Part shown: piece by piece, positions 21,937 through 53,565 of the stretch
How positions within the stretch are numbered: the first letter of the stretch is position 1
How the letters are laid out: every line of letters begins with the position of its first letter
DNA from: Armatimonadota bacterium
GTDB lineage: Bacteria > Armatimonadota > HRBIN16
Reading direction: 5' to 3'
Length of the DNA stretch: 64,000 nucleotides
Assembly (NCBI GenBank): GCA_049969495.1
Contig: JBMFOT010000006.1
Span: forward strand, 3,108 to 67,107
The notes under the pieces: generated by a model
The model's database searches: none
What the model was told of the DNA's origin: nothing
What the model saw: only the letters and a program-made list of their open reading frames with translations
Made by a program: the position numbers and the translations under genes

Positions 21937-22857
21937 TTGATGCGTCAGGTGATAGAGTGCGTGCCGAACTTCAGCGAAGGACGCCGTCGCGATACGGTGG
22001 ATGCACTGGCAGCAGCCGTACGCGAAGTGTCCGGCGTTCGACTGGTGAACGTATCGGCAGACCCCGACCACCACCGTGCCGTGTTGACCTTTCTGGGCGA
22101 ACCAGACGCGGTGGCGGAAGCCGCCTTCCGCAGTGCCCGGGTGGCGGTGGAGCGTATAGACCTGCGATCCCATCAGGGGGTGCATCCGCGCATCGGCGCG
22201 GTGGACGTGATGCCCTTCATCCCGCTCCGAAACGTGGAGATGTCGGCATGTGCGCAAGTTGCACGCGAAGTGGGGTATCGTATCGCGCATGAGCTGGATG
22301 TGCCGGTGTACTTCTATGAACATGCCGCGCTGCCCGGCAGACCGGCAGACCTGCCGACCATCCGCCGAGGAGGTTTTGAGCGATGGGCAGGACGCCCGCT
22401 GAGCGGCGACCGCGCACCAGACGCGGGTCCGGCTTTTCTTCACCCAACGGCAGGAGCGGCGATCGTGGGGGCGCGCGGACCTCTCATTGCTTTCAACGTC
22501 AATTTAAGCACCGACCGTTTGGAAGTAGCCCAGCACATTGCCCACACGATTCGACGGGAACGGGAACGCATCCCTCAGCTGGCGGGCGTGCGCGCGCTGG
22601 GGTTATTGCTTGCCTCGCGGGGCATTGTGCAAGTGTCGCTGAACCTCACGCAGCCGGATCGCAGCCCGCTCTGGTGGGTGCTGGAGTACGTGCGAGAGCG
22701 TGCGGCGGAGCAGGGCGTGCAAATACTGGAAACGGAGCTGATAGGCGTCGCGCCTGCATCTGTAATCGCCGGGGTAGCGGCACGCTATTTGCAAAATCCG
22801 GCACTGGGTGAAGAGCACATTCTGGACCTGTGGCTGGACCCGGAATGGAGACCCTGA
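21937..22857 (+). CDS. ftcD: Glutamate formimidoyltransferase (formiminotransferase domain only)
   Basis: MMRQVIECVPNFSEGRRRDTVDALAAAV...HPRIGAVDVMPFIP matches the FTCD N-terminal family. No cyclodeaminase domain is present. Confidence 0.85.
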   Translation: MMRQVIECVPNFSEGRRRDTVDALAAAVREVSGVRLVNVSADPDHHRAVLTFLGEPDAVAEAAFRSARVAVERIDLRSHQGVHPRIGAVDVMPFIPLRNVEMSACAQVAREVGYRIAHELDVPVYFYEHAALPGRPADLPTIRRGGFERWAGRPLSGDRAPDAGPAFLHPTAGAAIVGARGPLIAFNVNLSTDRLEVAQHIAHTIRRERERIPQLAGVRALGLLLASRGIVQVSLNLTQPDRSPLWWVLEYVRERAAEQGVQILETELIGVAPASVIAGVAARYLQNPALGEEHILDLWLDPEWRP

Positions 22858-24845
22858 GTATATCGCAAATGGCTTTTCGTCTGGTACTTGCGCTGGCAGT
22901 GGTGGCGTGGAGCTGGTACGCCTCGCCACTGCAGCAGCTCGTCACCGGCATCGCAGGTGGACTGCTATTGCTCACCGCGGCGAAGCCGAAAGGGCGACCG
23001 GCGGCTTGTCTGGATGTGCTGGCGGTATCCGTCTTGCAGGCGTATTCCCCGGCGTGGCTACCACTCAGCGCATGGGTGATTTCCATCCACCGGCGATATG
23101 CACGGTCGGTAGCGATCCTGCTCACTCCGGCTCCCTTTCTCTATGCCTGGCGGGCAGATGGCGGTTTTTTGTGGTGGGCTGTACTGTCCGGAGGAGTATG
23201 GCTGTACCTTGGCTTCGCGCTGGCGGAACAACCGGCGGGTAACGAAGAAGGAGCTTTGCTGTTGCCCCTGCCGGACGACCTGCGCGAGCAATGGGAGCAG
23301 GAGCGTGAAGCGCACCGTCAGCTGAGATATCAGTATCAGGAGCTGGTAGGCGCACACCGCGAGCTGATAGCGCAACAACAGGCGGAACACACCCGTATTC
23401 ACATTTTGCGGGCAGCCCTTCTGGCAGGTGACGTGGGCGAGGTGGCACAACGCATCTGCTTTATGCTGTGCGAACACACTGGCGTAGGCGAGGCGGCAAT
23501 ATGGATGTTTGAGCGATACCGTTCCGCTCTGCGGCTGCTACACCCCCGCCATACCAACTTGCCAGTCCATATCCCTCTATCCCTATCTTCCCGCTCGCAG
23601 GAAAGCGACCTGTCTTTCCGTGCAGCTCTGAACCAGTTCAAGTCTGCTTTACAGCCTTCACAGGGCAACAGGGTGGAGGCGTTCCTGCTTTGCGATGAAC
23701 AGGGAATCGTCGGAGGGGTAGCGCTGTTTGGCTGGGGGCACCCAGAGGAAGAGGCAGGCATTCGCGAGCGGTTTCAGCAGATGCAGGGCGTGGTTGCTCT
23801 GGCTCTGCGCCACGCGATGCAGTGGAACACGCTATGGCAGGAAAACCGTACATGGCGCGCGCTGTATGAGATAGGCCGACTGTTCCTCACGTCTTCTTCA
23901 GTAGAAGATTCTGCCAGAAAGTTTATCTCAGCTGTATCGGAACTGCTGTCTGCTCCCTTTGTCACCCTGTATCTTCGTCAGCAGGATACCGACGCCTTTC
24001 AGATTGTCGCCTCTGTCGGTGAACCCATCCGATTGATGGAGCAAGAGGGGAAAGCAGAAGGAGGCATCGCCGCCTGGATAGCGCAGCAGGCTCGCCCTCT
24101 CTACGTTCCTCGCACCTCTACAGAGCCCAAACTGATTGGTCACACTTCCAAACGGATATTTGCCAGCCTGATCGGAGCGCCTCTGTCGGTGCGGGGACGC
24201 GTGGAAGGTGTGCTGCTCGTGGCGCATCCTACAACCGGCTATTTCGATGAGCACCACGTAGAACAAGTGGTGTCAGCTGTCAATCAGTTTGCGCAGGTGA
24301 TAGAGGTCTCACGCCTGACCCGTTCGGTTGGACTGCTGGCGCTCACGGACGGCTTGACGGGCGTGTTCAACCGCCGCTACATGGAGGTGCGGCTGGATGA
24401 GGAGATCCATCGCAGTCAGCGATACGGTAAGCGGTTCAGCCTGATTCTGGTGGACGTGGACCACTTCAAACAGGTGAACGATACCTGGGGGCATGCCACA
24501 GGCGACATGGTGCTACAGGAGGTAAGCCGCAGGCTGGTGGAGAACCTGCGGGAGACGGAGATGGTTTTCCGCTACGGGGGCGAGGAGTTTCTGGTGATTC
24601 TACCGGAGACCGCGCTCCAGCAGGCGACGGTCGTTGCACAACGGTTATGCGACGCGGTGCGAAAACACCCCTTCCACACGCTGGGCGGGGCGACCGTTTT
24701 CCGTGTAACGCTCAGCGCAGGTGTTGCCGAGTACCCGACGCACGGTTCCGATAAGGTGACCCTGCTTGCTGCCGCCGATCAGGCGCTCTATCTGGCGAAA
24801 CGGCGCGGACGGAACCGGGTAGAGCAATTACCCGATGCTGCTTGA
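22830..24845 (+). CDS. Membrane-anchored GAF-domain diguanylate cyclase (GGDEF)
   Basis: Multiple N-terminal TM helices, a coiled coil, two GAF-like regions, and a C-terminal GGDEF domain (RYGGEEFLVILPE, DHFKQVNDTWGHATGD). Confidence 0.85.
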   Translation: MAGPGMETLSISQMAFRLVLALAVVAWSWYASPLQQLVTGIAGGLLLLTAAKPKGRPAACLDVLAVSVLQAYSPAWLPLSAWVISIHRRYARSVAILLTPAPFLYAWRADGGFLWWAVLSGGVWLYLGFALAEQPAGNEEGALLLPLPDDLREQWEQEREAHRQLRYQYQELVGAHRELIAQQQAEHTRIHILRAALLAGDVGEVAQRICFMLCEHTGVGEAAIWMFERYRSALRLLHPRHTNLPVHIPLSLSSRSQESDLSFRAALNQFKSALQPSQGNRVEAFLLCDEQGIVGGVALFGWGHPEEEAGIRERFQQMQGVVALALRHAMQWNTLWQENRTWRALYEIGRLFLTSSSVEDSARKFISAVSELLSAPFVTLYLRQQDTDAFQIVASVGEPIRLMEQEGKAEGGIAAWIAQQARPLYVPRTSTEPKLIGHTSKRIFASLIGAPLSVRGRVEGVLLVAHPTTGYFDEHHVEQVVSAVNQFAQVIEVSRLTRSVGLLALTDGLTGVFNRRYMEVRLDEEIHRSQRYGKRFSLILVDVDHFKQVNDTWGHATGDMVLQEVSRRLVENLRETEMVFRYGGEEFLVILPETALQQATVVAQRLCDAVRKHPFHTLGGATVFRVTLSAGVAEYPTHGSDKVTLLAAADQALYLAKRRGRNRVEQLPDAA

Positions 24846-25566: not shown

Positions 25567-27306
25567 TTGGAAAACGCAAGACCGCTCGGTTACTTTGCCT
25601 TTGTGTTGCACTCGCATATCCCATACGTGCTGGCACACGGGCGCAGTCCGCACGGTATGGACTGGCTATCAGAAAGCGCTGCCGAGACATACATACCGCT
25701 GCTGAATACCTGTTACCGGCTGATCAAAGAAGGCATCTCACCGCAGTTTACCATCGGTATTACACCGGTGCTGGCGGAGCAGCTGGTACAGCCGGCGTTC
25801 GCCGCCGAGTTCGAGGCGTGGCTGCAGGACAAAATCGCCGCTGCCGAGGTGAATCGAAAAGAGTTCCTGAGCGAGAAAAACCTGGGCATGGCTGCACTAG
25901 CAGAATACTGGTACCGGTTTTTCAGTAAAACTTTAACCGATTTTCGGGAACGCTATCAGTCGGACATCATCGGCGCATTCCGTGACCTGCAAGACGCCGG
26001 GCACGTGGAAATCCTGACCAGTGCGGCAACGCACGGCTACCTGCCTCTGCTGGGAACCGATGAGGCGGTGCAGGCGCAAATTAAACAGGGTGTGCAGACC
26101 TACAAACGATTGTTCGGCAGGATGCCGCGAGGCTTCTGGCTGCCCGAATGCGCGTATCGCCCGCGCTACCGCTGGAACTATCCGGTAGATTTCGAGAGCA
26201 AACCCTCGCAACCCTGGCTACGCAAAGGCGTTGAGGAGATTCTGGCTGAAAACGGCATCGAGTACTTTTTCATCGATTCGCATTTGCTCAAGGGCGGGGA
26301 GGCGATAGGCGTCTACGCCGAGCGGTTCAAGCCTCTGCGCGAGCTGTGGGTACAGTTCAGCACACAGTACCGCCCGGAGGAGGCAGAGAAATCACCGTAC
26401 TACGTCTACCTGGTGAATTCGTCGGGCGAGCCCAAGCCACCCATCGCTGTTTTCACGCGCGACCCGCGCACCGGCGTGCAGGTGTGGAGTGCCGACTCCG
26501 GTTACCCGGGCGACGAGTACTATCTGGAGTTCCACAAAAAGCAGCCACCGGGTGGCCTGCGTTACTGGCGCATCTCCCGCCCAAAAGATGACCTGGGCAA
26601 AAAGCAGCCGTACGAGCTGGCGAGGGCGTTCGAGCGCATTCAGGAACACGCCAAGCACTTCGTCGACCTTGCGCACGAGGTGCTCAGCGAGCACGTGCAA
26701 TCCACCGGTCAAAGCGGTATCATTACCGCCATGTACGACACCGAGCTGTACGGGCACTGGTGGTTTGAGGGCCCTGAATGGCTGTACTGGGTGCGTCGGG
26801 GGATGGAGACACACCCCGAAATCCACCCCGTCACCTGTAGCAAATACCTGCATCTGTACCCGCCGCAGACGGTGGTACATCTGCCGGAAGGCTCGTGGGG
26901 TGAAGGCGGCTACCACTGGGTGTGGCTGAACGAGTGGACAGAATGGACATGGAAGCGTATTTACCCTGCCGAGCGCGAGATGGTGCGCCTGGCGCGGCAG
27001 TACGGCGATAACCCGAAGGTGCAGACCATCCTGAAGCAAATCGCCCGCGAGTTGTTGCTTCTGCAATCATCTGACTGGCAGTTTCTCATCAGCACGTGGT
27101 CGGCGCGAGATTATGCCGAGCTGCGAGTGCAATGGCATGCCGACCGTTTCCAGATGCTGGTGAACTTGCTGGAGCGGGTCGCGCGAGGTGAGGAACCATC
27201 TGCTGAAGAGTGGGGCGCGCTGGGCGAGGCGGAGGAGCGCGATAACATCTTCCCCGACGTCGAGCCGAAGTGGTGGGCGCAGATAGAGTTCCCGCCAAAC
27301 GAGTAG
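25567..27306 (+). CDS. GH57-family 1,4-alpha-glucan branching enzyme
   Basis: N-terminus ENARPLGYFAFVLHSHIPYVLAHGRSPHGMDWLSE resembles Thermus/Thermococcus GH57 branching enzymes. Proposed TTG start at 25567, with a perfect AAGGAGG 8 nt upstream. The 718-aa track ORF over-extends into the divergent pncA gene. Confidence 0.75.
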   Translation: MENARPLGYFAFVLHSHIPYVLAHGRSPHGMDWLSESAAETYIPLLNTCYRLIKEGISPQFTIGITPVLAEQLVQPAFAAEFEAWLQDKIAAAEVNRKEFLSEKNLGMAALAEYWYRFFSKTLTDFRERYQSDIIGAFRDLQDAGHVEILTSAATHGYLPLLGTDEAVQAQIKQGVQTYKRLFGRMPRGFWLPECAYRPRYRWNYPVDFESKPSQPWLRKGVEEILAENGIEYFFIDSHLLKGGEAIGVYAERFKPLRELWVQFSTQYRPEEAEKSPYYVYLVNSSGEPKPPIAVFTRDPRTGVQVWSADSGYPGDEYYLEFHKKQPPGGLRYWRISRPKDDLGKKQPYELARAFERIQEHAKHFVDLAHEVLSEHVQSTGQSGIITAMYDTELYGHWWFEGPEWLYWVRRGMETHPEIHPVTCSKYLHLYPPQTVVHLPEGSWGEGGYHWVWLNEWTEWTWKRIYPAEREMVRLARQYGDNPKVQTILKQIARELLLLQSSDWQFLISTWSARDYAELRVQWHADRFQMLVNLLERVARGEEPSAEEWGALGEAEERDNIFPDVEPKWWAQIEFPPNE

Positions 27307-27342
27307 AACAAGACGTGGGACATCCGTACGCTATTTTCCGAA

Positions 27343-27359
27343 GGACACGGATAGGCACG
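27343..27359. promoter_or_regulatory. 17-bp motif GGACACGGATAGGCACG (copy 1; ACGGAT/ATCCGT half-sites) upstream of selA
   Basis: An identical 17-mer recurs at 29420-29436 upstream of the GT4 gene. Both loci also carry CATCCGT(R)(Y)(R)CTAT. See findings. Confidence 0.35.
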
Positions 27360-27386
27360 AAGGATTCGCTTATCGTTTACACTCCA

Positions 27387-28829
27387 ATGGGAACGCAGTA
27401 TACAGAAGATAAGCAACCTGGTTTGCGTCGGCTTCCTGCAGTGTCGCGTGTGCTGCAGGATAAGCAGGTGCAAGAAGCGATAGCCGAACACGGGCGCGAA
27501 CTGGTTGTGGATTGCGTGCGTGAAACCCTCGATCGGCTTCGTGAACGCCTTAAAAGAGGTGAAACGGTACCGACCGACCTGTCGTCGGTGGTGCAGGAAG
27601 CGCTGCAGGCGGTGGAACGATGGCGCACTTCTACCCTTCGCCGCGTCATCAACGCGACGGGCGTCGTCTTGCATACCGGCTTGGGGCGCGCTGTGCTGGC
27701 GGAGGCTGCTCGTCGGGCGGTGGCGGAGGTAGCACAGGGGCACTCGATGCTGGAGATCGACCGCGATACCGGCGAGCGCGGCGACCGCATCGAGCATGTG
27801 CGTGAGCTACTGTGTCGCCTGACCGGCGCGGAGGATGCTACCGTGGTAAACAACAACGCGGGGGCGGTGCTATTGGCAGTGACGGTGCTGGCGCAGAGCA
27901 AAGAGGTTATTATCTCGCGGGGGCAACTGGTGGAAATCGGAGGGGCGTTTCGCATGCCCGACATCATCGCGCAGAGCGGGGCAAGACTGGTGGAAGTGGG
28001 TACCACCAACCGCACACGTCTGTCGGACTACGAGCGAGCAATAACCCCCGACACCGCCTTGCTGATTCGCTGTCACCCCAGCAATTTCCGCATCGTGGGC
28101 TTTAGCGAAGAGGTACCTGCGGCGGATTTGGCGTCGCTGGCGCACCGATACAATCTGCCCGTGCTGGACGATGTGGGCAGTGGGTGTCTGGTGGATACCG
28201 AGCGGTTCGGGCTGGAGCACGAACCCACCTTGCAGGAGAGCGTACAAGCGGGTTGCGACGTGGTTACCTGCAGTGGCGACAAACTGCTGGGCGGACCGCA
28301 GGCGGGTATCGTCCTGGGGCGCAAAGAGATAGTACAGCGCATTCGCAGGCATCCGTTGCATCGTGCCCTTCGAGTGGATAAGCTGACCCTTGCTGCGCTG
28401 GAGGCAACCCTGCGTCTCTACCTGAATCCGGAGAAGGCGGTGCAGGAGGTTCCTGTGCTGCGTGCGCTGGCGACGCCTGCCGATGATATCGAGCGACGGG
28501 CGAGGCGGTTGAAACAGAGGCTGCAATCCATCTTGCCCGCAGAGGGGATAACGGTGCGCCTGCGCGAAGGCGAGTCGGCTGTGGGAGGCGGAAGTCTGCC
28601 CGGTCAGCAACTACCCACGACGCTGGTATGCCTGCGATTGTCGGATGGCAATGTGCAACGGCTGGCACGCGCCCTGCGCTGGCAGGAACCCGCTGTCTTC
28701 ACTCGTATCGAACAGGAGGAGGTAGTGATAGACCCCCGTACCTTACTGGAGGGTGAGATGGAAACGCTGGTGCAGGCGGTGGCGCGCGCCGTCACGCAGT
28801 GCTTGGGAGGTGAGGCAAGCCATGCATGA
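27387..28829 (+). CDS. selA: L-seryl-tRNA(Sec) selenium transferase
   Basis: MGTQYTEDKQPGLRRLPAVSRVLQ...RRVINATGVVLHTGLGRA...PSNFRIVGFSEEV...DVVTCSGDKLLGGPQAG. This is the SelA family with its PLP lysine region. Confidence 0.9.
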   Translation: MGTQYTEDKQPGLRRLPAVSRVLQDKQVQEAIAEHGRELVVDCVRETLDRLRERLKRGETVPTDLSSVVQEALQAVERWRTSTLRRVINATGVVLHTGLGRAVLAEAARRAVAEVAQGHSMLEIDRDTGERGDRIEHVRELLCRLTGAEDATVVNNNAGAVLLAVTVLAQSKEVIISRGQLVEIGGAFRMPDIIAQSGARLVEVGTTNRTRLSDYERAITPDTALLIRCHPSNFRIVGFSEEVPAADLASLAHRYNLPVLDDVGSGCLVDTERFGLEHEPTLQESVQAGCDVVTCSGDKLLGGPQAGIVLGRKEIVQRIRRHPLHRALRVDKLTLAALEATLRLYLNPEKAVQEVPVLRALATPADDIERRARRLKQRLQSILPAEGITVRLREGESAVGGGSLPGQQLPTTLVCLRLSDGNVQRLARALRWQEPAVFTRIEQEEVVIDPRTLLEGEMETLVQAVARAVTQCLGGEASHA

Positions 28830-31572: not shown

Positions 31573-31627
31573 TTGACAAATCGTGCAGCCTGTGTTATGA
31601 TAAAGATGAACCTTAACGTTAAACGTT
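31573..31627 (+). promoter_or_regulatory. Putative promoter (TTGACA-17nt-TATGAT) and tandem AACGTT palindromes (candidate operator) upstream of the LacI-family gene
   Basis: TTGACA at 31573-31578, a 17-nt spacer, TATGAT at 31596-31601. Then TAACGTTAAACGTT at about 31614-31627, just before the start at 31647. Confidence 0.4.
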
Positions 31628-31646
31628 GAGGGATAAAGTAATCATC

Positions 31647-32645
31647 ATGCTTACGAAAAGGGCGACTATCAAAGATATAGCGGCACGGGTGGGCGTCTCT
31701 GCAACGGTAGTGTCGCAGGTGCTGCGAGGGGTACAGGGGGCGATGGTCTCCACAGCCACACGCCAGCGCATCCTGGACACTGCCCGCGAGCTGGGCTATC
31801 GTCCCAACCGACAAGCGCAGGCACTGGTGGGAGGCAAGACGTATACAGTGGCTATTTGGAAACATGGTCTGCACTCGCCCTTCCACGCCTGGGTGATACA
31901 CGAGTGTGCGCAGCAGGCGTACGCCGACGGCTATGAGGTGATTATTCGTGACTTTACCTCCGTGCGCGAGGACACTTTATGGATGCACATCAACGATGTA
32001 GACGGTATCCTGGCGCACGAGTGTCCTGCTCATGCGCGAATGCTCCTGCAACAGCATCCACACGCGCGTTTACCGATAGTCAGCATGGGCGCCTTTTACA
32101 TCACGGAATGCGACCATGTGGGTATAGACCTGTATCCGGCTGCGCGCGAGGCGGTGCAGCATCTCGTTGGCAACGGCTGTCGTCGTATCGCATACGTGGC
32201 GCATGACCCCGACCGATCTTCCGGGGAGCCGCGCTACGAGGCATACCGGTCGGTGCTGCAGGAGGCAGGCATTCCGCTAGAGTACATCGCCCTGCGTGAC
32301 GCCCCTCGCGCCGAGGCGCGTCGCCTGCTACGAGAGTACTTTCAACAGCAGGGAACGCCCGACGGCATCTTTTGCCATAACGACGATGCGGCGATAACTT
32401 GCTTACGTGCAGTGTATGACACGGGCGCTCGCGTGCCGGATGACGTTGCGCTGGTGGGATGCGACGGCATCGATGAGACACAATACACCTTTCCGGAGCT
32501 CAGCACGATTGTACAACCGATAGAGGAGATGTGCCAACAGGCATGGAGGCTGTTCAGGCAGCGACTGGAGCAGCCGGGTAGGGAAATTGAAGGGGTGATA
32601 TTGCCTGCCCGGTTCGTCGCTCGTGGCTCTTCGCTGCGTTCTTAA
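31647..32645 (+). CDS. LacI-family transcriptional regulator
   Basis: N-terminal HTH ([22 protein letters not shown]) followed by a periplasmic-binding-protein-like sugar-binding domain. Confidence 0.85.
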
Positions 32646-32722
32646 TATGGCGATCAGGGGTAGAGTGCAGTGGCTGCCCCTTGATTAAGCGCATAAACAA
32701 CAACGATCGGAGGGATTATCCA

Positions 32723-33568
32723 ATGAAACGCAGCGCTTTCACGCTCATTGAGCTGCTGGTCGTTATCGCGATTATCGCGATACTGGCAGCGATCCTGTTC
32801 CCGGTGTTCGCTCAGGCACGCGAGAAGGCACGTAGCATCACCTGCCTGAGCAACACTAAGCAAGTCGGACTGGCAGCAGCCATGTACTTGCAGGATTATG
32901 ACGAAACAACGGCGCCTGCCAAAACATGCGGTGGGGACGGCACGTGTGCCACGGCACCTGCGCCTGGGCGATTCTCCTGTGCCAACGATTCGATAAGCCC
33001 ACCCTACTACATCGAGTGCATTGGGCCTTTTGCTTCCTTCCAGGACCTGGTGCAGCCATATATGAAGAACTACGGGTTGCTAGTTTGCACCTCGAACCCT
33101 CAAAGAGGCGTTTGGCCCACGGATCCGACCTGCGATGGTACCGCCGGCAATCGACAGTACACTTACAAAGTGAACCACTATGCGGTGTCGCCGGTCGTGT
33201 ACCTGAACAACTATGATCCCAACATGCAGAACCCGTACGTCGGATGGACGGCGATCGGGGCACCTCTCGCTCGATTTGCCACTCCCGCATCGCTGATACT
33301 GCTTGCCGAGTTCTACGGCACCTGTCCTGACGTGCGCAACAGTATCCATGACATCGACTGTGGTATCCACAACGGGGGATCAAACTACGTCTTTGTAGAC
33401 GGTCACGCGAAGTGGTACCGTTTCCTGCAGACAGTCACCCCGGACAGGACATGCATGTGGGCAGGCGAAGAAGACCCGAACGCACAGCTGGTTATTTGCA
33501 CCGCCTACAAGAACAAAGTCATCGCCAGGGCACCGGGTAGGCCGTTCTTGCAGAAGTGTCTGCAGTAG
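32723..33568 (+). CDS. Prepilin-type N-terminal cleavage/methylation domain protein, DUF1559 (H-X9-DG) family
   Basis: [29 protein letters not shown] (type IV pilin-like leader and TM), and C-terminal [21 protein letters not shown]. Confidence 0.85.
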
Positions 33569-33579
33569 GGAGGCTAGCG

Positions 33580-33768
33580 ATGAATAAGGAAGTGCACTGG
33601 GGCTGGGTCATTGCTGCCATTGTGGTAGCGATACTGATACTCGTGGGTGGGCTCTGGTGGCAAGATAAGAAGCGCACCGCCGAGTACATCAAGTATCGCC
33701 AGGAGGTGGTGGCAGGCGAGCAGCGGATTGGAGCTCCCGCGGGACCGGCTTCACGTGAGGAGCGGTAG
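33580..33768 (+). CDS. Small single-pass membrane protein (63 aa) immediately downstream of the DUF1559 gene
   Basis: MNKEVHWGWVIAAIVVAILILVGGLWWQDKKRTAEYIKYRQE...; TM helix, then a basic juxtamembrane stretch. Overlaps the DUF1559 stop. Confidence 0.45.
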   Translation: MNKEVHWGWVIAAIVVAILILVGGLWWQDKKRTAEYIKYRQEVVAGEQRIGAPAGPASREER

Positions 33769-33822
33769 CTTGCTTGCTGCTCGCATCACGCGATAACACA
33801 AGCAACTCGATTCGCAGGCCAA

Positions 33823-33857
33823 TCTGCTTCTGCCGGTATGCCCGCGCAGGGCATACC
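33823..33857 (+). terminator. Rho-independent terminator (CCGGTATGCCC-gcgca-GGGCATACCGG + GCTTTTT)
   Basis: 11-bp perfect stem followed by a T-tract, about 55 nt after the small-protein stop. Confidence 0.7.
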
Positions 33858-33964
33858 GGGCTTTTTGTGCCTGAGCAAGGGAAACCCTGCGCGAACGGCG
33901 AAAGGAAAAGTGAATGGGATGCGAAGACAATTGCGCAGGGAATCAGTCGAAGGGGGAAGGAACG

Positions 33965-35407
33965 ATGCACAAGCTTTCGCGACGACGCTTCTTGCAGGAT
34001 TCGCTGGCACTGCTGGCGGTCAGTGCACTGCCCGCTCCCGTTTTCGCCTCGGTCAAGGTGGCTCGTAAGCAAGCCAGCTCCAACGAGCGCATCGGCGCGG
34101 CGGTCATCGGCTTCAACGGGCAGGGCAAAAGCCACATCCGTCAGCTGCTGGCTCAACCCGATGTGGACCTGGTGGCGCTGTGCGACGTGGACGAGGCGGT
34201 ATGGCCCATCGGACTGAAGATTGTGGAAGACGCGGGCAGACCCAAACCCAAAACCTATCAGGACATCCGCAAACTGCTGGAAGACAAGGACGTGGACGTG
34301 GTGACCATCGCCACGCCCAATCACTGGCACGCACTCGCCGCTATCTGGGCGATGATGGCGGGCAAGGATGTGTATGTTGAAAAGCCCTCTAGCCATAACG
34401 TGTGGGAAGGTCGCCGCACGGTAGACATTGCCCGACAGCTGGGGCGCATCTGCCAAGTGGGCACGCAGATTCGCTCCTCCGAAGGCATCCGCCAGGCGAT
34501 GCAGTACCTGCACGAGGGCAAGCTGGGCAAGGTGTACCTGGCGCGCGGACTGTGCTATAAACGACGCGATTCTATCGGCAAGGTACCCGGGCCACAGGAA
34601 CCACCCGCCACGGTAGACTACGACATCTGGCTGGGACCCGCGCCCAAGAAGCCTGTGATGCGCCAGCGGTTCCATTACGACTGGCACTGGTTCTGGGACT
34701 ACGGCAACGGCGACCTGGGTAACCAGGGTGTGCACCAGATGGACATCGCCCGCTGGGGCTTGAACAAGAATACCCTGCCGAACAAGGTGCTGGGCTTGGG
34801 CGGGCGCTTCGGCTATGTGGACGACGGTGAGACGCCCAACACCGAGCTGGTCTTCTGCGACTACGGCGATAGCCAGCTCATCTTCGAAGTGCGCGGGCTG
34901 GAGACCCCCGACCTGAAGGGCGTCAAGGTCGGTAACATCTTCTACGGCGAGAAGGGTATCATGGTCATCCCCAGCTACAGCCAGGCGATTGTGTTCGACA
35001 ACGACGGCAACAAGGTGACCGAGTTCGGCGCGGGTGGCGACCACATGCGCAACTTCCTCGACGCGGTGCGCAGCCGAAAGCACACCGACCTGCACGCCGA
35101 CATCGAAGAGGGGCATCTCTCCAGCGCGTTGTGTCATCTGGGCAACATCTCCTATCGGCTGGGTGAGCTGGTACCCTTTGACGCCGAGAAGAAAGCCTTC
35201 GGGGATAACAAGGAGGCTTACGAGACCTTTGCCCGCTTCGAGGAGCACCTCGCGGCAAACAACATCGTGCTGCGGGAAACAAAGTATCGCCTGGGACGCG
35301 AACTGCAAATTGATGCCCACCACGAAACCTGCGGGCGCGATTCGCGGGCGAACCGTTTGCTCACCCGCGAGTACCGAAAACCCTACGTCGTGCCAGAGAA
35401 GGTGTAG
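33965..35407 (+). CDS. Gfo/Idh/MocA-family oxidoreductase with twin-arginine (Tat) signal
   Basis: MHKLSRRRFLQDSLALLAVSALPAPVFA (Tat motif SRRRFLQ) and a Rossmann fold (IGAAVIGFNGQGKSHI). Start refined to 33965. The stop TAG is supplied by the 51-bp repeat. Confidence 0.85.
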   Translation: MHKLSRRRFLQDSLALLAVSALPAPVFASVKVARKQASSNERIGAAVIGFNGQGKSHIRQLLAQPDVDLVALCDVDEAVWPIGLKIVEDAGRPKPKTYQDIRKLLEDKDVDVVTIATPNHWHALAAIWAMMAGKDVYVEKPSSHNVWEGRRTVDIARQLGRICQVGTQIRSSEGIRQAMQYLHEGKLGKVYLARGLCYKRRDSIGKVPGPQEPPATVDYDIWLGPAPKKPVMRQRFHYDWHWFWDYGNGDLGNQGVHQMDIARWGLNKNTLPNKVLGLGGRFGYVDDGETPNTELVFCDYGDSQLIFEVRGLETPDLKGVKVGNIFYGEKGIMVIPSYSQAIVFDNDGNKVTEFGAGGDHMRNFLDAVRSRKHTDLHADIEEGHLSSALCHLGNISYRLGELVPFDAEKKAFGDNKEAYETFARFEEHLAANNIVLRETKYRLGRELQIDAHHETCGRDSRANRLLTREYRKPYVVPEKV

Positions 35408-35449: not shown

Positions 35450-35525
35450 TGACGGTTTGTTCCGCAACGCTACCTGTGCTAAAATAATGGAGGAGTGTAC
35501 TTGAAACTGTGTGTTAGGGACAAGT

Positions 35526-35750
35526 ATGAGTGGAAGACAGCTACGAGGGCTGAAAGGGGAAGAGGTTATCAAAGCTTTTGAAAGAGCGGGAGGCGTTGTG
35601 CGCAAAGGGAAAGGAAGTCATGTGAACATCAAGATGCCGAACGGAGCGCTCATCACTATTCCAGTGGTATCGGAAGTCAAGGTTGGCTTGCTGAAGGCGG
35701 CGATTCACCGAGCAGGGCTCAGCGAGGAAGAGTTTATCCGTTTCCTCTAA
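35526..35750 (+). CDS. hicA: HicA-family mRNA interferase toxin
   Basis: MSGRQLRGLKGEEVIKAFERAGGVVRKGKGSHVNIKMPNGALITIPVVSEVKVGLLKAAIHRAGLSEEEF matches the YcfA/HicA fold with the conserved GSH. Candidate promoter TTGTTC-17-TAAAAT at 35457-35485. Confidence 0.85.
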   Translation: MSGRQLRGLKGEEVIKAFERAGGVVRKGKGSHVNIKMPNGALITIPVVSEVKVGLLKAAIHRAGLSEEEFIRFL

Positions 35751-35762
35751 AGGAGGAGCACA

Positions 35763-36026
35763 ATGGACTATACCGTTATCATCCACGATGCGGAAGAAGG
35801 TGGATACTGGATAGAAGTACCCGCCTTACCCGGTTGCTTCTCGCAGGGCGAGAGCATGGAAGAAGCCTTGCAAAACATCCAGGAAGCCATCGCTGTGCAC
35901 CTCGATGCTTTGGCAGAAGAAGGAAAAAGTGCCCCACCCGACATCGGCTGGATGGTGGCACGGGTAGCAGTGCCGAAGATACAGGCTCAACCAACAGCTA
36001 CACGCAAAAGGGCTCACAAGGTGTAG
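35763..36026 (+). CDS. hicB: HicB-family antitoxin
   Basis: MDYTVIIHDAEEGGYWIEVPALPGCFSQGESMEEALQNIQEAIAVHLDAL matches HicB/UPF0150. AAAGGAGG SD. The stop TAG lies inside repeat copy B. Confidence 0.85.
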   Translation: MDYTVIIHDAEEGGYWIEVPALPGCFSQGESMEEALQNIQEAIAVHLDALAEEGKSAPPDIGWMVARVAVPKIQAQPTATRKRAHKV

Positions 36027-36068
36027 CCCTCACTCTCCCCCCTCTCCCAGGCGTCGGGAGAGGGGGCT
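36018..36068. repeat. 51-bp direct repeat, copy B (identical to 35399-35449)
   Basis: Perfect duplicate. It provides K-V-stop to hicB. The hicAB cassette lies exactly between copies A and B. Confidence 0.85.
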
Positions 36069-36075
36069 CTTGTGT

Positions 36076-36294
36076 TTAGCGGGCGGTCTGCTCGCCTCCG
36101 GCTGGAGGGGCAACTCCCCCACCGCCCGGTGGTCCCATCCGCTGTGACTTGGGCAGCATCGGACCGGTGTAATAGCCGGGGGGCGGAGGCTCCTCCTTCT
36201 GTGCCTGAAAACGCAGTAGCATGGCTATGCCTACCAGCACAATGCCCACCAGTAACAGGATGAGGATGTTCTTCTGCCTGCCAGTTGCACCCAT
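36076..36294 (-). CDS. Small membrane protein with conserved GYYxGPMLPKSQR motif (paralog 1)
   Basis: MGATGRQKNILILLLVGIVLVGIAMLLRFQAQKEEPPPPGYYTGPMLPKSQRMGPPGGGG... The motif is shared with the neighbouring gene at 36352-36534. Start refined to the internal Met. Confidence 0.5.
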   Translation of the reverse strand: MGATGRQKNILILLLVGIVLVGIAMLLRFQAQKEEPPPPGYYTGPMLPKSQRMGPPGGGGVAPPAGGEQTAR

Positions 36295-36351
36295 CGCTGC
36301 TTTCCTCCACACTGCCGAAATGAAGCCCCCGCCCACAGGCGGGGGCTTCGG

Positions 36352-36534
36352 CTAATTCGTTGTCCCTTGAGCGGGTGTGCTTCCCCTCTGGCTCTTGGGA
36401 AGCATAGGACCCTCGTAGTAGCCCTCTGCCTTGGGGTCTTCTTTCTTTCCACAGGCGGTGATACTCAGGCCGATGACCACGAGCCACAAAAGGCTGAGCA
36501 CGAGCAGTATCGCTCTGACGATGCCTCTTCGCAT
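36352..36534 (-). CDS. Small lipoprotein with conserved GYYxGPMLPKSQR motif (paralog 2)
   Basis: MRRGIVRAILLVLSLLWLVVIGLSITACGKKEDPKAEGYYEGPMLPKSQRGSTPAQGTTN; signal peptide plus lipobox ITAC. Lies 4 nt downstream of the DUF1559 gene. Confidence 0.55.
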   Translation of the reverse strand: MRRGIVRAILLVLSLLWLVVIGLSITACGKKEDPKAEGYYEGPMLPKSQRGSTPAQGTTN

Positions 36535-36538
36535 GGGA

Positions 36539-37357
36539 CTACTCCATCGAGAAAGTGAAGTAGCGCTCGTAGTACACGGTCTGCCCGTTCTCGACGGTGG
36601 TCGCTAGGTAGCGCTCCGGATTGCGCTTGATGTTCTTGGCATGACCATCCAGGAAGGTAAAGTTCGCACCGTCCTGGTGGATCTTCTGCGATTCGCAACC
36701 GATGGAGATGACCACATAGGTGGGGCCTTTGTCCAACATGGTGATGCCGTCACCTATGAGGATGGTCTCCGCCGGTCGCTTGATTTCCGGCATATACCGG
36801 GTAAGCCCACCACTTTCAGCTGGATAGCACAGACTACCCGGGAAGTGGTAGTAAGGATTCTCAGGGGTGCCTGCGCCACCGCGCTGCGCCATCTGGAACA
36901 CGATGCCGTAGTGAGCGAAGACCTGAGTGGGAGGCCAGTAGGGGTCCATCTCACCCGGATAGCAGTCAGGCATGTTGACACCCTCCATGTACCTTTCCTG
37001 GCTCCACGAGGGGCATCGATGCAAGCCAGCAGGCTGTCCACCTACAGTGTAGGTCCGCCCTGCATCTGGCGGCACCAGAGTGCTTTTGATGTACGGATGT
37101 AGCAGACCGAACCAGAACCGCTCGTTCAAGGGCTGCCCGGGGTACTCCCGAATCTTGAACCAGGGCACGATGGCTTCATCGTAGTCCTGGGCATACATCA
37201 GGATCGCCGTGCCGAACTGTTTGGAGTTGGACAGACACGACGATTTCCGAGCCGCTTCTCGCGCCTGCGAGAAGACGGGGAACAGGATCGCTGCCAGTAT
37301 CGCGATAATCGCGATAACAACCAGCAGCTCGATGAGCGTAAAAGCATGTCGTTTCAT
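36539..37357 (-). CDS. Prepilin-type N-terminal cleavage/methylation domain protein, DUF1559 (H-X9-DG) family, paralog 2
   Basis: [47 protein letters not shown]... with C-terminal [13 protein letters not shown]. Start refined to 37357. Confidence 0.85.
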
Positions 37358-37624
37358 TACCGTTTTACCCTCCTGACCTTGGATGTGATGAATTATGTCA
37401 AGCGCTTGAAAGCGCCGGACATCCTGTGTATACATATTCAGAAAGATTATACCTAACCTTCTTTTTTTCCGCAACCCTGCACCATAATCTAATGCTATTC
37501 GTTGTTATTTTAAGCCTTCCTTCCCATTTTGTCAATAACTATTAAGTCTTCCAGCGATTTTACTGTACTTTTGCGGAGATGACAGGGCGTGGCGGGTAGT
37601 ACCACGCCCTGGGGGAAATAAGTC

Positions 37625-38830
37625 TTACTCATCCCCGATCGCGCCGAAGTTTGCCACCAGGATGCCGAAATCGAACAGGGTCACTTCCTCATCTCCGTCG
37701 AGGTCGGCATCGGGGTTCCAGTTCTCATCACCGGGCATACTGCCGAAGGCGGCAACCAGCGCACCGAAGTCGAACAGGGTTACCTCGTTGTCGCCGTCGA
37801 TGTCGCCGTTTATCAGCGACACATCTACGCCCGTAACATCTGCACCGGCGACCACCACGCCCGGTACCACGACGCGCAACCAGTGGCTGGCTTTGAAGGC
37901 GATGTCATACGTGCCATCCGCCACGTCGATGATGGTATAGGAGCCGTCAGCGTTCAGGTTAATCTGCTCGGAGCGCACCACGTTGCCGTCCTGCCGCAGC
38001 GCCACATTAATCGGCACCTGCGTGATGTCACCGCCGAAGTCGGTGAGGGTCACGGTTCCACTAACGGAGAAGCTCGCAGGCAGAATGTTGTGTAACGCCG
38101 CCACGTACACGATGTCCGCGTCGAACCGGGTGTTGGGATAGGGCTGGTTGGGCGTTGCGGATTGAGGTCCTTGCAAAGGCACATAGCCGGCCCCGCCGCC
38201 AAGGATCACGTTACCCTGTCCGCTCGGATTATCCACGCGGTCGGCGTCGATGAGGTTGGCAATCATGATGGCGTCGATCGATTCTCCATCCTGCAGACCG
38301 AAGTCGCTGAGGTTGTACGCTGTGGCAAAGACGTTGTAGCCGGTAGTGAAGGAGTTAGCAAACTCGTAACGCCACTGGCTGAACTCGGTAGATCCCTTCT
38401 TGCGTACCGCCACCATGAACCCCTCTGGCGCACCCAGCGAACCGACCTCGTATACCACAAAGTCTTCGCCGGACAGGTTGGGCAGTCGCTTGCCCTCCCA
38501 GTCGACCAGAATGATTTTGCGCACGGTGGGATCGGTGACATGCCCCAGCTCCACAAAGCGCGCTCGTCCTGAGGGACTACCGTTCATGATCCATCCGATG
38601 CTCTTGGTGCGGTCGAAACTGGGCTGGTCATACAGAAAGTCGGAATCGTAGAAGCTAAAGCCACTCACATTATCGGGAAGCACCGGTAGCGCGCGCGTGG
38701 GGCTGTTCGCGAGGTCCCATGAGTAGCCACCTACCGTGAAGACCTGTGCTGTTACCGGCTGCGGAGTAGCGAGCAAAAGAGCTACCCCACACACCAGAGC
38801 GATGTGGAGATAGACGCTGGCGAAACGCAT
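37625..38830 (-). CDS. Secreted protein with C-terminal dockerin-like repeats
   Basis: Signal peptide MRFASVYLHIALVCGVALLLATPQPVTAQ. C-terminal DIDGDNEVTLFDFGALVAAFG...DLDGDEEVTLFDFGILVANFG matches the dockerin type I calcium-binding repeats. Confidence 0.7.
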   Translation of the reverse strand: MRFASVYLHIALVCGVALLLATPQPVTAQVFTVGGYSWDLANSPTRALPVLPDNVSGFSFYDSDFLYDQPSFDRTKSIGWIMNGSPSGRARFVELGHVTDPTVRKIILVDWEGKRLPNLSGEDFVVYEVGSLGAPEGFMVAVRKKGSTEFSQWRYEFANSFTTGYNVFATAYNLSDFGLQDGESIDAIMIANLIDADRVDNPSGQGNVILGGGAGYVPLQGPQSATPNQPYPNTRFDADIVYVAALHNILPASFSVSGTVTLTDFGGDITQVPINVALRQDGNVVRSEQINLNADGSYTIIDVADGTYDIAFKASHWLRVVVPGVVVAGADVTGVDVSLINGDIDGDNEVTLFDFGALVAAFGSMPGDENWNPDADLDGDEEVTLFDFGILVANFGAIGDE

Positions 38831-52881: not shown

Positions 52882-53565
52882 TTATCGTAGGGTCACATAA
52901 GGTCGTATCTGCTCCAGCTTCTTTGGACCGATACCGCGCACCTCGATGAGTTCGTCCACCGAGTGGAAGCTCCCGTTCTGCTTGCGGTATTCGATGATTG
53001 CGCGGGCGGTAGCCGGTCCTACGCCGGGCAGGCTCTCCAGTTGCTCTGCGCTGGCGGTGTTGACGTTGATTTTACCCCGGAGAGGCTCCCTGTGCTCCGA
53101 TGTTGCACCTTGCCGAACCGCTCCCACACGTGCCTCCACCTGCACTGATTCGCCCTTGCGAGGCACATAAACCTGCACGCCGTCTTCCAGTGGCTGCGCC
53201 AGGTTCACCGAATCGGGGTCCGCCTGACTGCTGAATCCGCCCGCCGCTTTCACCGCATCGTCCACCCGACTGCCTCGCGGTATCCGCACCACACCGGGCT
53301 TTTTCACCGCCCCTGCCACGTGCACCACGATCTCGTCGCTCTCGGCAGGCGGCGTCCCCTGAGAAGGGGTGGCTTCACCGGTTTCAGCGGGTAGTGTTGG
53401 GGCGGAAAGCGCGGGCGGCGATGGCTGCCGGGTGCTGTCGCTCGGTATGGTAGGCGCAGGCACATCGCTGCCGGAAAACACCCCCTGCCACAGCACAATA
53501 CCGCAGGTAATCACCACCAGCACCCCAGCGGTCCATAACCCTTTGGGAACACGATCCATTGCCAA
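52882..53565 (-). CDS. comEA: ComEA-like DNA-binding protein (SLBB + tandem helix-hairpin-helix)
   Basis: N-terminal TM. SLBB region (GVVRIPRGSRVDDAVKAAGG). C-terminal HhH (INVNTASAEQLESLPGVGPATARAIIEYRKQNGSFHSVDELIEVRGIGPKKLEQI). Confidence 0.8.
   Translation of the reverse strand: MAMDRVPKGLWTAGVLVVITCGIVLWQGVFSGSDVPAPTIPSDSTRQPSPPALSAPTLPAETGEATPSQGTPPAESDEIVVHVAGAVKKPGVVRIPRGSRVDDAVKAAGGFSSQADPDSVNLAQPLEDGVQVYVPRKGESVQVEARVGAVRQGATSEHREPLRGKINVNTASAEQLESLPGVGPATARAIIEYRKQNGSFHSVDELIEVRGIGPKKLEQIRPYVTLR

What the first reader, a model, noticed from the sequence alone, without database searches (positions are those of the whole stretch)
36076..37357. DUF1559 prepilin-like gene followed by two tiny paralogous membrane/lipoprotein genes sharing a conserved EGYYxGPMLPKSQR motif
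Downstream of the pilin-like gene (37357-36539), with 4-nt and 15-nt gaps, lie two short ORFs: one of 60 aa (lipobox ITAC) and one of ~72 aa (TM helix). Both carry ...K(E/K)EDP...GYY(E/T)GPMLPKSQR... after the hydrophobic segment. I do not recognise this motif from any described family. The second DUF1559 gene (32723-33568) is likewise followed by a 63-aa single-TM ORF (33580-33768) whose stop overlaps, suggesting a recurring pilin-like plus micro-protein module. The function of the large DUF1559 paralog families is unknown.
Basis: partly seen in the sequence, partly recalled or inferred. Interest (0 to 1): 0.6.

Follow-up and report, generated by a model that had tools for sequence, protein, structure and literature searches.

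The report
Pilin-linked micro-protein pair in Armatimonadota
Two tiny membrane-anchored proteins that share a strictly conserved short motif are real genes, always sit just after one particular pilin-like gene in Armatimonadota bacteria, belong to no described family, and are most likely partner subunits of that pilin-like protein.

Summary
On the minus strand lie a prepilin-type H-X9-DG/DUF1559 gene (36539-37357), a 60-aa lipoprotein gene (36352-36534) and a 72-aa single-helix gene (36076-36294). Both small proteins carry GYYxGPMLPKSQR.

Both small genes are real. Across 38 distinct DNA versions of the motif, variation sits at third codon positions (entropy 0.34/0.30/1.14). Profile searches recover about 190 small proteins, split 84 lipobox to 80 helix-anchored. 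Every informative name is Armatimonadota-type, and none matches Pfam, NCBIfam, PDB or IMG/VR viral contigs. The phylum-wide core motif is shorter: GYYxGPMxPK.

In 27 assembled loci and 41 of 42 testable metagenome contigs, the pair directly follows one orthologous pilin-like gene. The lipoprotein start lies 3-26 nt (usually 3-8 nt) after the pilin stop. A GC-rich hairpin, conserved in structure only, follows the lipoprotein gene. The motif sits 12-13 residues from either anchor. Other pilin paralogs carry their own, different micro-proteins.

Function is inferred, not shown. The most likely reading is that these are cognate, membrane-tethered docking partners of the pilin-like protein, as PilA-C is for Geobacter PilA-N. 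This is a new family and a moderately interesting lead into the uncharacterised DUF1559 expansions.

The parts
37507..37535 (-). Sigma-70-like promoter candidate (TTGACA-17-TAAAAT, 11 of 12 matches), about 150 nt upstream of the pilin start codon.
   Evidence: This is a consensus match only. Three such sites were found in the region against 0.8 expected from shuffles.
36539..37357 (-). Prepilin-type H-X9-DG / DUF1559 pilin-like protein of 272 aa. It has a class III signal (MKRHA|FTLIELLVV) and ends in ...[25 protein letters not shown].
   Evidence: Family matches. The AlphaFold2 model has pLDDT 95.6, with a long N-terminal helix (residues 8-58) followed by a beta-sheet domain. Invariant residues among 121 homologues are P88, Y89, C132, G174, C221, H227, G230, D237 and H239. 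Orthologues precede the small genes in every locus examined.
36352..36534 (-). GYY-motif micro-protein, lipoprotein type, 60 aa. It has the signal peptide MRRGIVRAILLVLSLLWLVVIGLSITA|C. The predicted mature lipopeptide is 33 aa. The gene starts 4 nt after the pilin stop.
   Evidence: Lipobox statistics for 84 family members are.
36385..36423 (-). Motif GYYEGPMLPKSQR in the lipoprotein copy (residues 38-50).
36322..36349 (-). GC-rich hairpin with a 12-bp stem and 4-nt loop, immediately after the lipoprotein stop codon. It is a candidate terminator, attenuator or mRNA-stabilising element.
   Evidence: An equivalent 10-13 bp hairpin occupies the same position in all 19 loci folded. The sequences differ while the structure is kept, and several are followed by T-runs.
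36076..36294 (-). GYY-motif micro-protein, helix-anchored type, 72 aa. The layout is MGATGRQKN, then a hydrophobic helix, then LRFQAQKEEPPPP, then GYYTGPMLPKSQR, then a Gly/Pro-rich tail.
   Evidence: In the AlphaFold2 model, helix 4-31 has pLDDT 94-97, the motif region is coil with pLDDT about 78, and the tail is below 50.
36139..36177 (-). Motif GYYTGPMLPKSQR in the helix-anchored copy (residues 40-52).
36038..36066 (.). Palindromic GC-rich hairpin (11 pairs) just past the stop of the last small gene. It is shared with the convergent hicB gene and is the likely end of the transcription unit.
32723..33568 (+). Second H-X9-DG/DUF1559 pilin-like paralog, 281 aa. It is part of the recurring pilin-plus-micro-protein pattern but is not a GYY module.
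33580..33768 (+). 62-aa single-helix micro-protein following the second pilin paralog. It has a different C-terminal sequence (...KYRQEVVAGEQRIGAPAG...).
   Evidence: It is conserved in L001, with 12 synonymous and 13 non-synonymous codon differences.

Best explanation
What is shown:
- This is a conserved three-gene cassette of the phylum Armatimonadota.
- The first gene encodes one specific orthologue of the H-X9-DG/DUF1559 type-IV-pilin-like proteins.
- The lipoprotein gene starts 3-26 nt after the pilin stop (3-8 nt in most loci), a spacing consistent with translational coupling.
- The lipoprotein matures to a lipopeptide of roughly 30-45 residues.
- A structured hairpin follows, and then comes a paralogous single-helix membrane protein.
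- Both small proteins present the same linear motif, GYYxGPMxPK, extended to GYYxGPMLPKSQR in this clade.
- The motif sits on a Pro-rich spacer 12-13 residues from the membrane anchor.
- The motif is the selected part. The anchors and tails drift.

What is inferred:
- The motif faces the periplasm in both proteins. This is certain for the lipoprotein if the lipobox is used. For the helix-anchored copy it rests on paralogy.
- There the motif docks onto the membrane-proximal globular domain of the cognate pilin-like protein while that protein is still held in the membrane by its N-terminal helix.
- The small proteins would then be partner or escort subunits that stabilise, hold or hand over the pilin-like protein. 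This resembles the way the separately encoded PilA-C completes the short Geobacter pilin PilA-N.
- The hairpin would set a high pilin-plus-lipoprotein to helix-anchored-protein expression ratio.
For: The genes are real and selected: third-codon-position variation in the motif, 60 close and about 190 total homologues, and 63 representative clusters among 1.84 billion proteins.

Linkage to one pilin orthologue is strict. It holds in the window plus 26 other distinct loci. It also holds in 41 of 42 testable metagenome contigs, and the remaining one keeps only the pilin 3' end. The flanking genes differ between clades, so only the trio is kept.

The spacing between the pilin stop and the lipoprotein start is 3-8 nt in most loci and up to 26 nt.

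Lipobox and helix-anchored forms occur at 84:80, as expected for an obligate pair.

The distance from anchor to motif is nearly identical in both forms: median 12 residues after the lipidated Cys and 13 after the helix. In the AlphaFold2 model the motif region is coil without regular secondary structure, as expected of a motif that folds on a partner.

Other pilin paralogs carry different, paralog-specific micro-proteins, which argues for cognate pairing.

There is precedent for a pilin completed by the product of the next gene: Geobacter PilA-N (61 aa) plus PilA-C (104 aa) form a heterodimeric major pilin (PMC11046646). [quoted passage not shown]
Against: No physical interaction has been tested.

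Gene linkage and translational coupling show co-expression, not binding.

The positive-inside rule does not settle the topology of the helix-anchored copy: K+R is 2.16 on the N-terminal side against 2.07 on the C-terminal side.

The small proteins show no sequence similarity to PilA-C or to any solved chain.

The function of H-X9-DG pilin-like proteins is itself unknown, and no type IV pilus or type II secretion machinery genes lie in this window.
Confidence: 0.4

Rival explanations
1. The motif does not bind the pilin. Instead it binds a shared envelope machine or enzyme, such as the filament assembly platform, the secretin, the prepilin peptidase or a modifying enzyme. The small proteins would then be adaptors that recruit or regulate that machine for this particular pilin-like protein.
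For: The motif is near-invariant across the phylum, while the pilin globular domain diverges to about 50% identity. That pattern fits a partner more conserved than the pilin. The fixed 12-13-residue tether places the motif near the membrane surface, where such machinery sits. A PilZ-domain gene lies convergent and immediately downstream in 10 Fimbriimonadales-type loci, although those PilZ sequences share only 27-57% identity.
Against: Other pilin paralogs have different micro-proteins rather than reusing the GYY motif. That argues for pilin-specific recognition rather than recognition of a shared machine. No machinery genes are linked to the cassette in any locus examined.
Confidence: 0.2
2. 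The pair is an envelope-spanning tether that works independently of the pilin. An inner-membrane helix-anchored protein and an outer-membrane lipoprotein would meet through their shared motif or Pro-rich arms, with the architecture of two-component phage spanins (Rz/Rz1). They would merely be co-transcribed with the pilin gene.
For: The pairing of one lipoprotein with one bitopic protein is conserved at 84:80. Residue +2 after the lipidated Cys is G, S or A and never Asp; by the E. coli rule this would send the lipoprotein to the outer membrane. Both proteins have Pro/Gly-rich extended regions. Three of 65 members give weak sub-threshold hits to the T7 o-spanin family (best E = 0.0098).
Against: The ectodomains are very short, and the motif lies only 12-13 residues from each anchor, which is poorly suited to bridging a periplasm. 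No relatives were found in IMG/VR viral contigs. The o-spanin hits are below threshold and reflect the lipoprotein signal. Strict linkage and coupling to one pilin orthologue would be left unexplained. L028 has only the lipoprotein copy.
Confidence: 0.12
3. The small proteins are precursors of processed or released peptides, such as signals or modified peptides. The conserved motif would be the core that is cut out or modified.
For: The sequences are very short, with one sharply conserved core and variable flanks. A short M50 (site-2 protease family) peptidase gene lies next to the cassette in two lineages, L010 and L028, at 53-58% identity.
Against: The M50 gene is absent near the cassette in most loci and in the window. 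No maturation, export or modification genes are linked. A lipid-anchored copy and a helix-anchored copy of the same motif, held at the same tether length, suggest membrane display rather than release.
Confidence: 0.08
4. The small ORFs are chance reading frames in GC-rich DNA and are not genes.
For: They are very short, have no database annotation beyond 'hypothetical protein', and many spurious ORFs overlap this 59% GC region.
Against: The codon-position pattern of variation, about 190 homologues with invariant motif residues, and conserved order, spacing and ribosome-binding context over 60-plus loci all argue against chance.
Confidence: 0.01

Closest known systems
Geobacter sulfurreducens split major pilin PilA-N / PilA-C (heterodimeric pilin; PMC11046646)
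   Same: A pilin gene is followed directly by a small gene whose product completes or partners the pilin. The N-terminal helix of the window pilin gives its best PDB sequence matches to PilA-N ('Geopilin domain 1', E = 2.7e-07).
   Different: Here the pilin is full-sized, with a 272-aa protein and a large globular domain. There are two partners, each only 60-72 aa, and they consist of a linear motif rather than a folded 104-aa domain. The GYY proteins show no sequence similarity to any PDB chain, PilA-C included. An interaction has not been shown.
H-X9-DG / DUF1559 (PF07596, TIGR04294) prepilin-type paralog families of Planctomycetota, Verrucomicrobiota, Lentisphaerota and Armatimonadota
   Same: The upstream gene is a member. 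In Tuwongella such genes are reported to be often flanked by genes with type I or type II signal peptides (PMC8567305).
   Different: No specific partner family or motif has been described for them. Here a defined micro-protein family is tied to one orthologous pilin group across a phylum.
Two-component phage spanins (i-spanin Rz plus o-spanin Rz1)
   Same: Adjacent genes encode a small bitopic membrane protein and a very small Pro-rich lipoprotein.
   Different: The setting is a chromosomal housekeeping region. There are no viral relatives and no coiled-coil periplasmic domain. The two proteins are paralogs sharing one motif, and they are coupled to a pilin gene.
Flp/Tad-type mini-pilins
   Same: Proteins of 50-90 aa with a charged N-terminus followed by one hydrophobic helix, encoded in pilus loci.
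   Different: There is no G/XXXXEY processing motif. One copy has a lipobox instead. The conserved element lies after the helix, not within it (direct reading of the alignments).

Membership tests
Type IV pilin-like proteins (prepilin N-terminal cleavage/methylation; PF07963, TIGR02532) | Short basic leader, a cleavage site before Phe, Glu at mature position 5, and a hydrophobic alpha-1 helix. | tested here: met
   The sequence reads MKRHA|[26 protein letters not shown]07963 scores 33.8 bits (cut-off 21.2) and TIGR02532 scores 31.4 bits (cut-off 16.3). The model has a helix at residues 8-58. Processing by a prepilin peptidase was not tested.
DUF1559 / SBP_bac_10 (PF07596) | A match to the family profile above the gathering score. 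| tested here: met
   36.7 bits against a cut-off of 23.3, but only profile positions 2-60 of 268 align. The globular part is divergent from the Pfam seed.
H-X9-DG domain (TIGR04294) | His, nine residues, then Asp-Gly near the C-terminus of a prepilin-type protein. | tested here: met
   H227-x9-D237-G238-H239. The score is 19.7 bits against a cut-off of 19. H227, D237 and H239 are invariant in 121 homologues.
Bacterial lipoproteins (signal peptidase II substrates), for ORF 36352-36534 | A basic n-region, a hydrophobic h-region and a lipobox [LVI][ASTVI][GAS]C. | tested here: met
   The window ORF reads MRRGIVR, then AILLVLSLLWLVVIGLS, then ITA|C. 84 family members carry a lipobox such as LSGC, LAGC, ITAC or LSAC. 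This is a pattern match only; no dedicated predictor was run and lipidation was not measured.
Bacterial lipoproteins (signal peptidase II substrates), for ORF 36352-36534 | Actual lipidation and cleavage, and the final membrane location. | not testable with these tools
   This needs globomycin sensitivity, mass spectrometry or fractionation.
Geobacter PilA-C-like pilin partner | Sequence or fold similarity to PilA-C, and assembly with the pilin. | tested here: not met
   A profile search of PDB sequences with the GYY family found nothing below E = 0.29 and no pilin chain. Assembly with the pilin could not be tested.
Phage two-component spanins | A match to i- or o-spanin families, and a phage lysis-cassette context. 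| tested here: not met
   Only 3 of 65 members hit PF17531, at E >= 0.0098 and below threshold. There are no relatives in IMG/VR. The context is chromosomal.
Any described protein family, for the two GYY micro-proteins | A significant match in Pfam-A, NCBIfam or PDB, or a mention of the motif in the literature. | tested here: not met
   There were no hits. No paper contains GYYEGPM, GYYTGPM or longer motif strings. Where a source gives a name, it is only 'hypothetical protein' or 'uncharacterized lipoprotein'.

The most novel reading that the evidence does not exclude
The large, functionally unassigned H-X9-DG/DUF1559 pilin-like expansions may be two-component modules. Each pilin paralog would work with its own genetically coupled, membrane-tethered micro-peptide, which occupies or gates a site on the pilin's globular domain. 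One possibility is the site around the invariant Cys/Glu/His/Asp/His cluster, met by the peptide's invariant Tyr-Tyr, Met and Lys. The GYY trio would be the most conserved and most tractable example. That would make the function of the whole DUF1559 family experimentally approachable.
Probability: 0.15. Interest if true: 0.75.

Novelty: new variant of a known kind. Interest (0 to 1): 0.45.

Why it matters
H-X9-DG/DUF1559 pilin-like proteins form some of the largest paralog families in Planctomycetota, Verrucomicrobiota and Armatimonadota, and none has an assigned function.

A strictly co-inherited, closely spaced (probably translationally coupled) micro-protein pair with a sharp linear motif gives a concrete handle. 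It yields a predicted binding partner, a mutable 10-residue motif, and a culturable carrier genus (Armatimonas).

The pair also adds a well-supported family to the under-annotated world of bacterial micro-proteins of 100 aa or less. Gene callers missed the lipoprotein copy in at least two loci, L030 and L033.

Tried and rejected
- **Complex model.** I tried AlphaFold on a pilin-linker-lipopeptide-linker-ectodomain fusion with a 13-row paired alignment.
- **Rfam.** A scan of 35800-37800 gave only sub-threshold matches, the best being sX6 at 26.3 bits against a gathering score of 40.
- **Taxonomy of distant members.** A cluster look-up returned no organism names.
- **Reach into other phyla.** The profile searches gave no Planctomycetota or Verrucomicrobiota names.
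- **Phage spanin origin.** Rejected: no viral relatives were found.
- **Flp-type mini-pilins.** Rejected: the processing motif is absent.
- **Sortase LPXTG signal.** Considered because of 'LPKSQ' and a weak TIGR01167 hit. Rejected: that hit covers the N-terminal helix (residues 4-28), falls below the cut-off (15.7 against 15.9), and the LPKSQ part is not conserved across the family.
- **Upstream and downstream neighbours as cassette members.** The CarboxypepD_reg/dockerin-like gene (37625-38830) is conserved only in the HR16-like clade. The PilZ gene is conserved only in the Fimbriimonadales-type clade. Neither belongs to the core cassette.
Full report
**1. What is in the sequence**

The minus strand of 36076-37357 carries three consecutive ORFs.

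- The first (36539-37357, 272 aa) begins MKRHA|[16 protein letters not shown].
- It matches the prepilin N-terminal methylation motif: PF07963 at 33.8 bits and TIGR02532 at 31.4 bits.
- It also matches DUF1559/SBP_bac_10: PF07596 at 36.7 bits, covering only profile positions 2-60.
- It matches the H-X9-DG domain too: TIGR04294 at 19.7 bits against a cut-off of 19.
- Four nucleotides after its stop begins a 60-aa ORF (36352-36534). It has a textbook lipoprotein signal, MRRGIVR-AILLVLSLLWLVVIGLS-ITA|C, and would mature to a 33-residue lipopeptide.
- The third ORF is best read from the ATG at 36294 (72 aa), which is where the homologues start.
- The real 57-nt spacer holds a 12-bp GC-rich hairpin at 36322-36349.
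- Both small proteins carry GYY(E/T)GPMLPKSQR. BLASTP gives 15/22 identities, E = 0.002 for the single comparison.
- The two DNA copies differ by synonymous changes, including AGC against TCA for serine. They are therefore old paralogs held by selection on the protein.

**2. Are the small ORFs genes?**

Yes.

- A profile of the two found 60 proteins with E-values from 5e-29 to 3e-6. Every hit that carries a name is a 'hypothetical protein' or 'uncharacterized lipoprotein' from Armatimonadota-type MAGs. The window's own record is an NCBI Armatimonadota MAG, locus tag ACP5RN_02225.
- In the alignment, G38, Y39, M44, L45, P46, K47 and R50 are invariant.
- Over 38 distinct DNA versions of the 13-codon motif, mean entropy at codon positions 1/2/3 is 0.34/0.30/1.14.
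- A no-word-index HMM search of 1.84 billion representative proteins gave 63 clusters at E <= 0.001.
- A profile of those distant hits gave 190 proteins at E <= 1. The informative names were Armatimonas sp., Chthonomonadales, Chthonomonadetes, Fimbriimonadales, Armatimonadota and bacterium HR16.
- One hit is labelled 'Firmicutes' (P0042). Its contigs L004-L006 are syntenic with this window, so the bin is probably mislabelled.
- One hit is labelled 'Chloroherpetonaceae' (P0195). Its contig L033 carries the same pilin-plus-GYY cassette, so that label is also doubtful.
- Across the wider family the core motif is GYY[TE]GPMx[PNGAS]K. LPKSQR(M)G is specific to the window's clade.
- In more distant clades the helix-anchored copy carries a second conserved segment, roughly Y-x-T-E/D-D-G-x-x-V-x-P-P-P.
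- None of the small proteins matches Pfam, NCBIfam or any PDB chain. No paper in the library contains the motif. No relative exists in IMG/VR viral contigs.

**3. Linkage**

Every context I could read shows the same cassette.

- The window and 26 other distinct assembled loci have a pilin-like gene of 259-286 aa directly followed by the lipoprotein copy. The pilin ends ...ERYL...Y(F/Y)TFSME, or ...RYY..DR in distant clades.
- The gap to the lipoprotein start is 3-8 nt in most loci and up to 26 nt.
- The helix-anchored copy follows.
- There are two exceptions. L028 lacks the helix-anchored copy, and in L032 the order of the two small genes is swapped.
- Gene callers missed the lipoprotein copy in L030 and L033. 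It is nonetheless present there.
- Of 51 metagenome contigs with the motif, 42 have enough upstream sequence to test. Forty show the H-X9-DG ORF ending less than 260 nt upstream.
- One more (L059) has the pilin with a frameshift. One (L061) keeps only the last 40 or so pilin codons behind unrelated sequence, possibly through chimeric assembly.
- The flanking genes differ between clades. They include a CarboxypepD_reg/dockerin-like gene and HicAB or PIN genes in some, a convergent PilZ gene in others, and ADH, DAHP synthase or glycosyltransferase genes elsewhere. Only the trio is the conserved unit.
- The linkage is to one orthologous pilin group, not to DUF1559 genes at large.
- Lipobox and helix-anchored forms are found 84:80 among 164 family members.

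**4. Expression signals**

- A TTGACA-17-TAAAAT site (11 of 12 matches) lies at 37535-37507 on the minus strand.
- In all 19 loci folded, a 10-13 bp GC-rich hairpin starts within a few bases of the lipoprotein stop. Its sequence is not conserved but its position and strength are, and several are followed by T-runs.
- A second hairpin (36038-36066) follows the last gene.
- The simplest reading, which is an inference, has two parts. The pilin and lipoprotein would be made together from an abundant transcript that ends or is stabilised at the first hairpin. The helix-anchored copy would be made at a different level by read-through.

**5. Structure**

- With 120 homologues, AlphaFold2 gives a confident model of the pilin-like protein (mean pLDDT 95.6, pTM 0.88).
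- The model has a 50-residue N-terminal helix, a long insert and a multi-stranded beta domain that runs through the H-X9-DG segment to the C-terminus.
- Foldseek found no PDB relative at E <= 0.001.
- PDB sequence matches cover only the N-terminal helix. Geobacter PilA-N is on top.
- Invariant residues include C132, C221, H227, D237 and H239. C41, C115 and E222 are nearly invariant. Four conserved cysteines fit an extracytoplasmic, disulfide-bonded domain; that is an inference.
- The helix-anchored micro-protein models as one confident helix (residues 4-31, pLDDT 94-97).
- After the helix, the motif is coil with pLDDT about 78 and the tail is disordered. This is the behaviour of a linear motif that needs a partner.

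**6. Geometry**

- The motif starts a median of 12 residues after the lipidated Cys (range 11-28).
- It starts a median of 13 residues after the hydrophobic helix (range 10-16).
- Two different anchors holding the same motif on the same short Pro-rich tether is the strongest hint about mechanism. Whatever binds the motif sits close to the membrane surface.
- The positive-inside rule does not decide the orientation of the helix-anchored copy (K+R 2.16 against 2.07). I infer an outward-facing motif from paralogy with the lipoprotein.

**7. The wider pattern**

- Among other pilin-like paralogs present in the fetched loci, 7 of 11 types are followed by their own micro membrane protein. Examples are the window's 33580-33768, the '...YREGELGHRPGE' family, and small lipoproteins in L029 and L030.
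- These micro-proteins differ from paralog to paralog, which suggests cognate pairs.
[quoted passage not shown] No partner family has been defined.

**8. Mechanism**

- Shown: the genes are real, the motif is under selection, and co-inheritance with one pilin orthologue is strict.
- Also shown: the spacing is tight, the hairpin is conserved, the anchors are of two types, and the tether length is fixed.
- Inferred (confidence about 0.4): the two micro-proteins are cognate partner or escort subunits. Their motif would dock on the membrane-proximal globular domain of the pilin-like protein. This is analogous in logic to Geobacter PilA-N/PilA-C (PMC11046646).
- Rival 1: the motif binds shared assembly machinery or an enzyme (0.2).
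- Rival 2: the pair is a spanin-like envelope tether independent of the pilin (0.12).
- Rival 3: the small proteins are precursors of released peptides. This is prompted by an adjacent M50 peptidase in two lineages, but that gene is not general (0.08).
- Rival 4: the ORFs are chance reading frames. This is refuted.

**9. Novelty and score**

- The pilin-like gene is an ordinary member of a known but uncharacterised family.
- The GYY micro-proteins are an undescribed family.
- Their strict, phylum-wide coupling to one pilin orthologue is a new variant of the 'pilin plus accessory partner' theme.
- It is a useful, testable lead rather than a major surprise. Interest is 0.45.

Noticed in passing
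window 31626-35407 (+); also L001 7370-11238 and L003 2763-6631: A conserved four-gene run. It consists of a LacI-family regulator (31626-32645), the second H-X9-DG pilin-like gene, its 62-aa micro-protein, and a GFO/IDH/MocA oxidoreductase (33914-35407). The oxidoreductase has a twin-arginine-type signal (SRRRFLQDSLALLAVSALPAPVFA). This suggests that this pilin paralog belongs to a sugar-responsive periplasmic unit.
   Followed up: partly
L007 6244-6792, L008 6249-6845, and the same position in L020-L027: A PilZ-domain gene lies convergent to the trio and immediately downstream of it. In L007 it overlaps the trio by 12 nt. This is seen in 10 Fimbriimonadales-type loci, although the PilZ proteins share only 27-57% identity. 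It is absent from the window and from the HR16-like clade.
   Followed up: partly
window 35511-36026 (+): A HicA toxin (35511-35750) and HicB antitoxin (35763-36026) pair lies convergent with the cassette. The slot is variable: L002 has HicAB plus a PIN gene, L001 has the PIN gene only, and L004 has neither.
   Followed up: partly
window 37625-38830 (-): A 401-aa secreted protein with a CarboxypepD_reg-like domain and dockerin-like repeats at the C-terminus (both below the Pfam cut-offs) lies directly upstream of the pilin gene. It is conserved at 68-92% identity in the HR16-like clade only.
   Followed up: partly
L010 7414-8070; L028 2110-2748: A short (212-218 aa) Peptidase_M50 (site-2 protease family) gene sits next to the cassette in two separate lineages. 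The two copies are 53-58% identical to each other. It was not found near the cassette elsewhere.
   Followed up: partly
Helix-anchored family members from distant clades (e.g. P0244-P0287; L030 4001-4291, L032 4001-4282, L033 4001-4258): After GYYTGPMKxK these proteins carry a second conserved segment, roughly Y-x-T-(E/D)-D-G-x-x-V-x-P-P-P. It is missing from the window's clade, where SQRMGPPGGG takes its place.
   Followed up: no
window pilin residues 221-239 (about 36641-36697, minus strand): This stretch holds a cluster of invariant or near-invariant residues: C221, E222, H227, D237 and H239. It looks like a possible metal or ligand site. The partner motif has an invariant Met, Tyr-Tyr and Lys. 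No coordinates were available to check the geometry.
   Followed up: no
L061 about 2400-2515; L059 about 1700-2500: In L061 only the last 40 or so codons of the pilin gene precede the small genes, behind unrelated sequence with dockerin-like repeats. This may be a chimeric assembly or a real truncation. L059 has the pilin gene with a frameshift.
   Followed up: partly
L030 about 3690-3880; L033 about 3710-3900: The lipoprotein GYY gene is present in both loci, but the source annotations did not call it. Micro-proteins of this family are therefore under-annotated.
   Followed up: yes
window 22830-24845 (+), 27270-28829 (+), 52882-53565 (-): The rest of the window is ordinary chromosome. It includes a GAF-GGDEF diguanylate cyclase, selenocysteine synthase SelA, and a ComEA-like SLBB plus helix-hairpin-helix protein. 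No type IV pilus or type II secretion machinery genes were seen among the ORFs scanned.
   Followed up: partly
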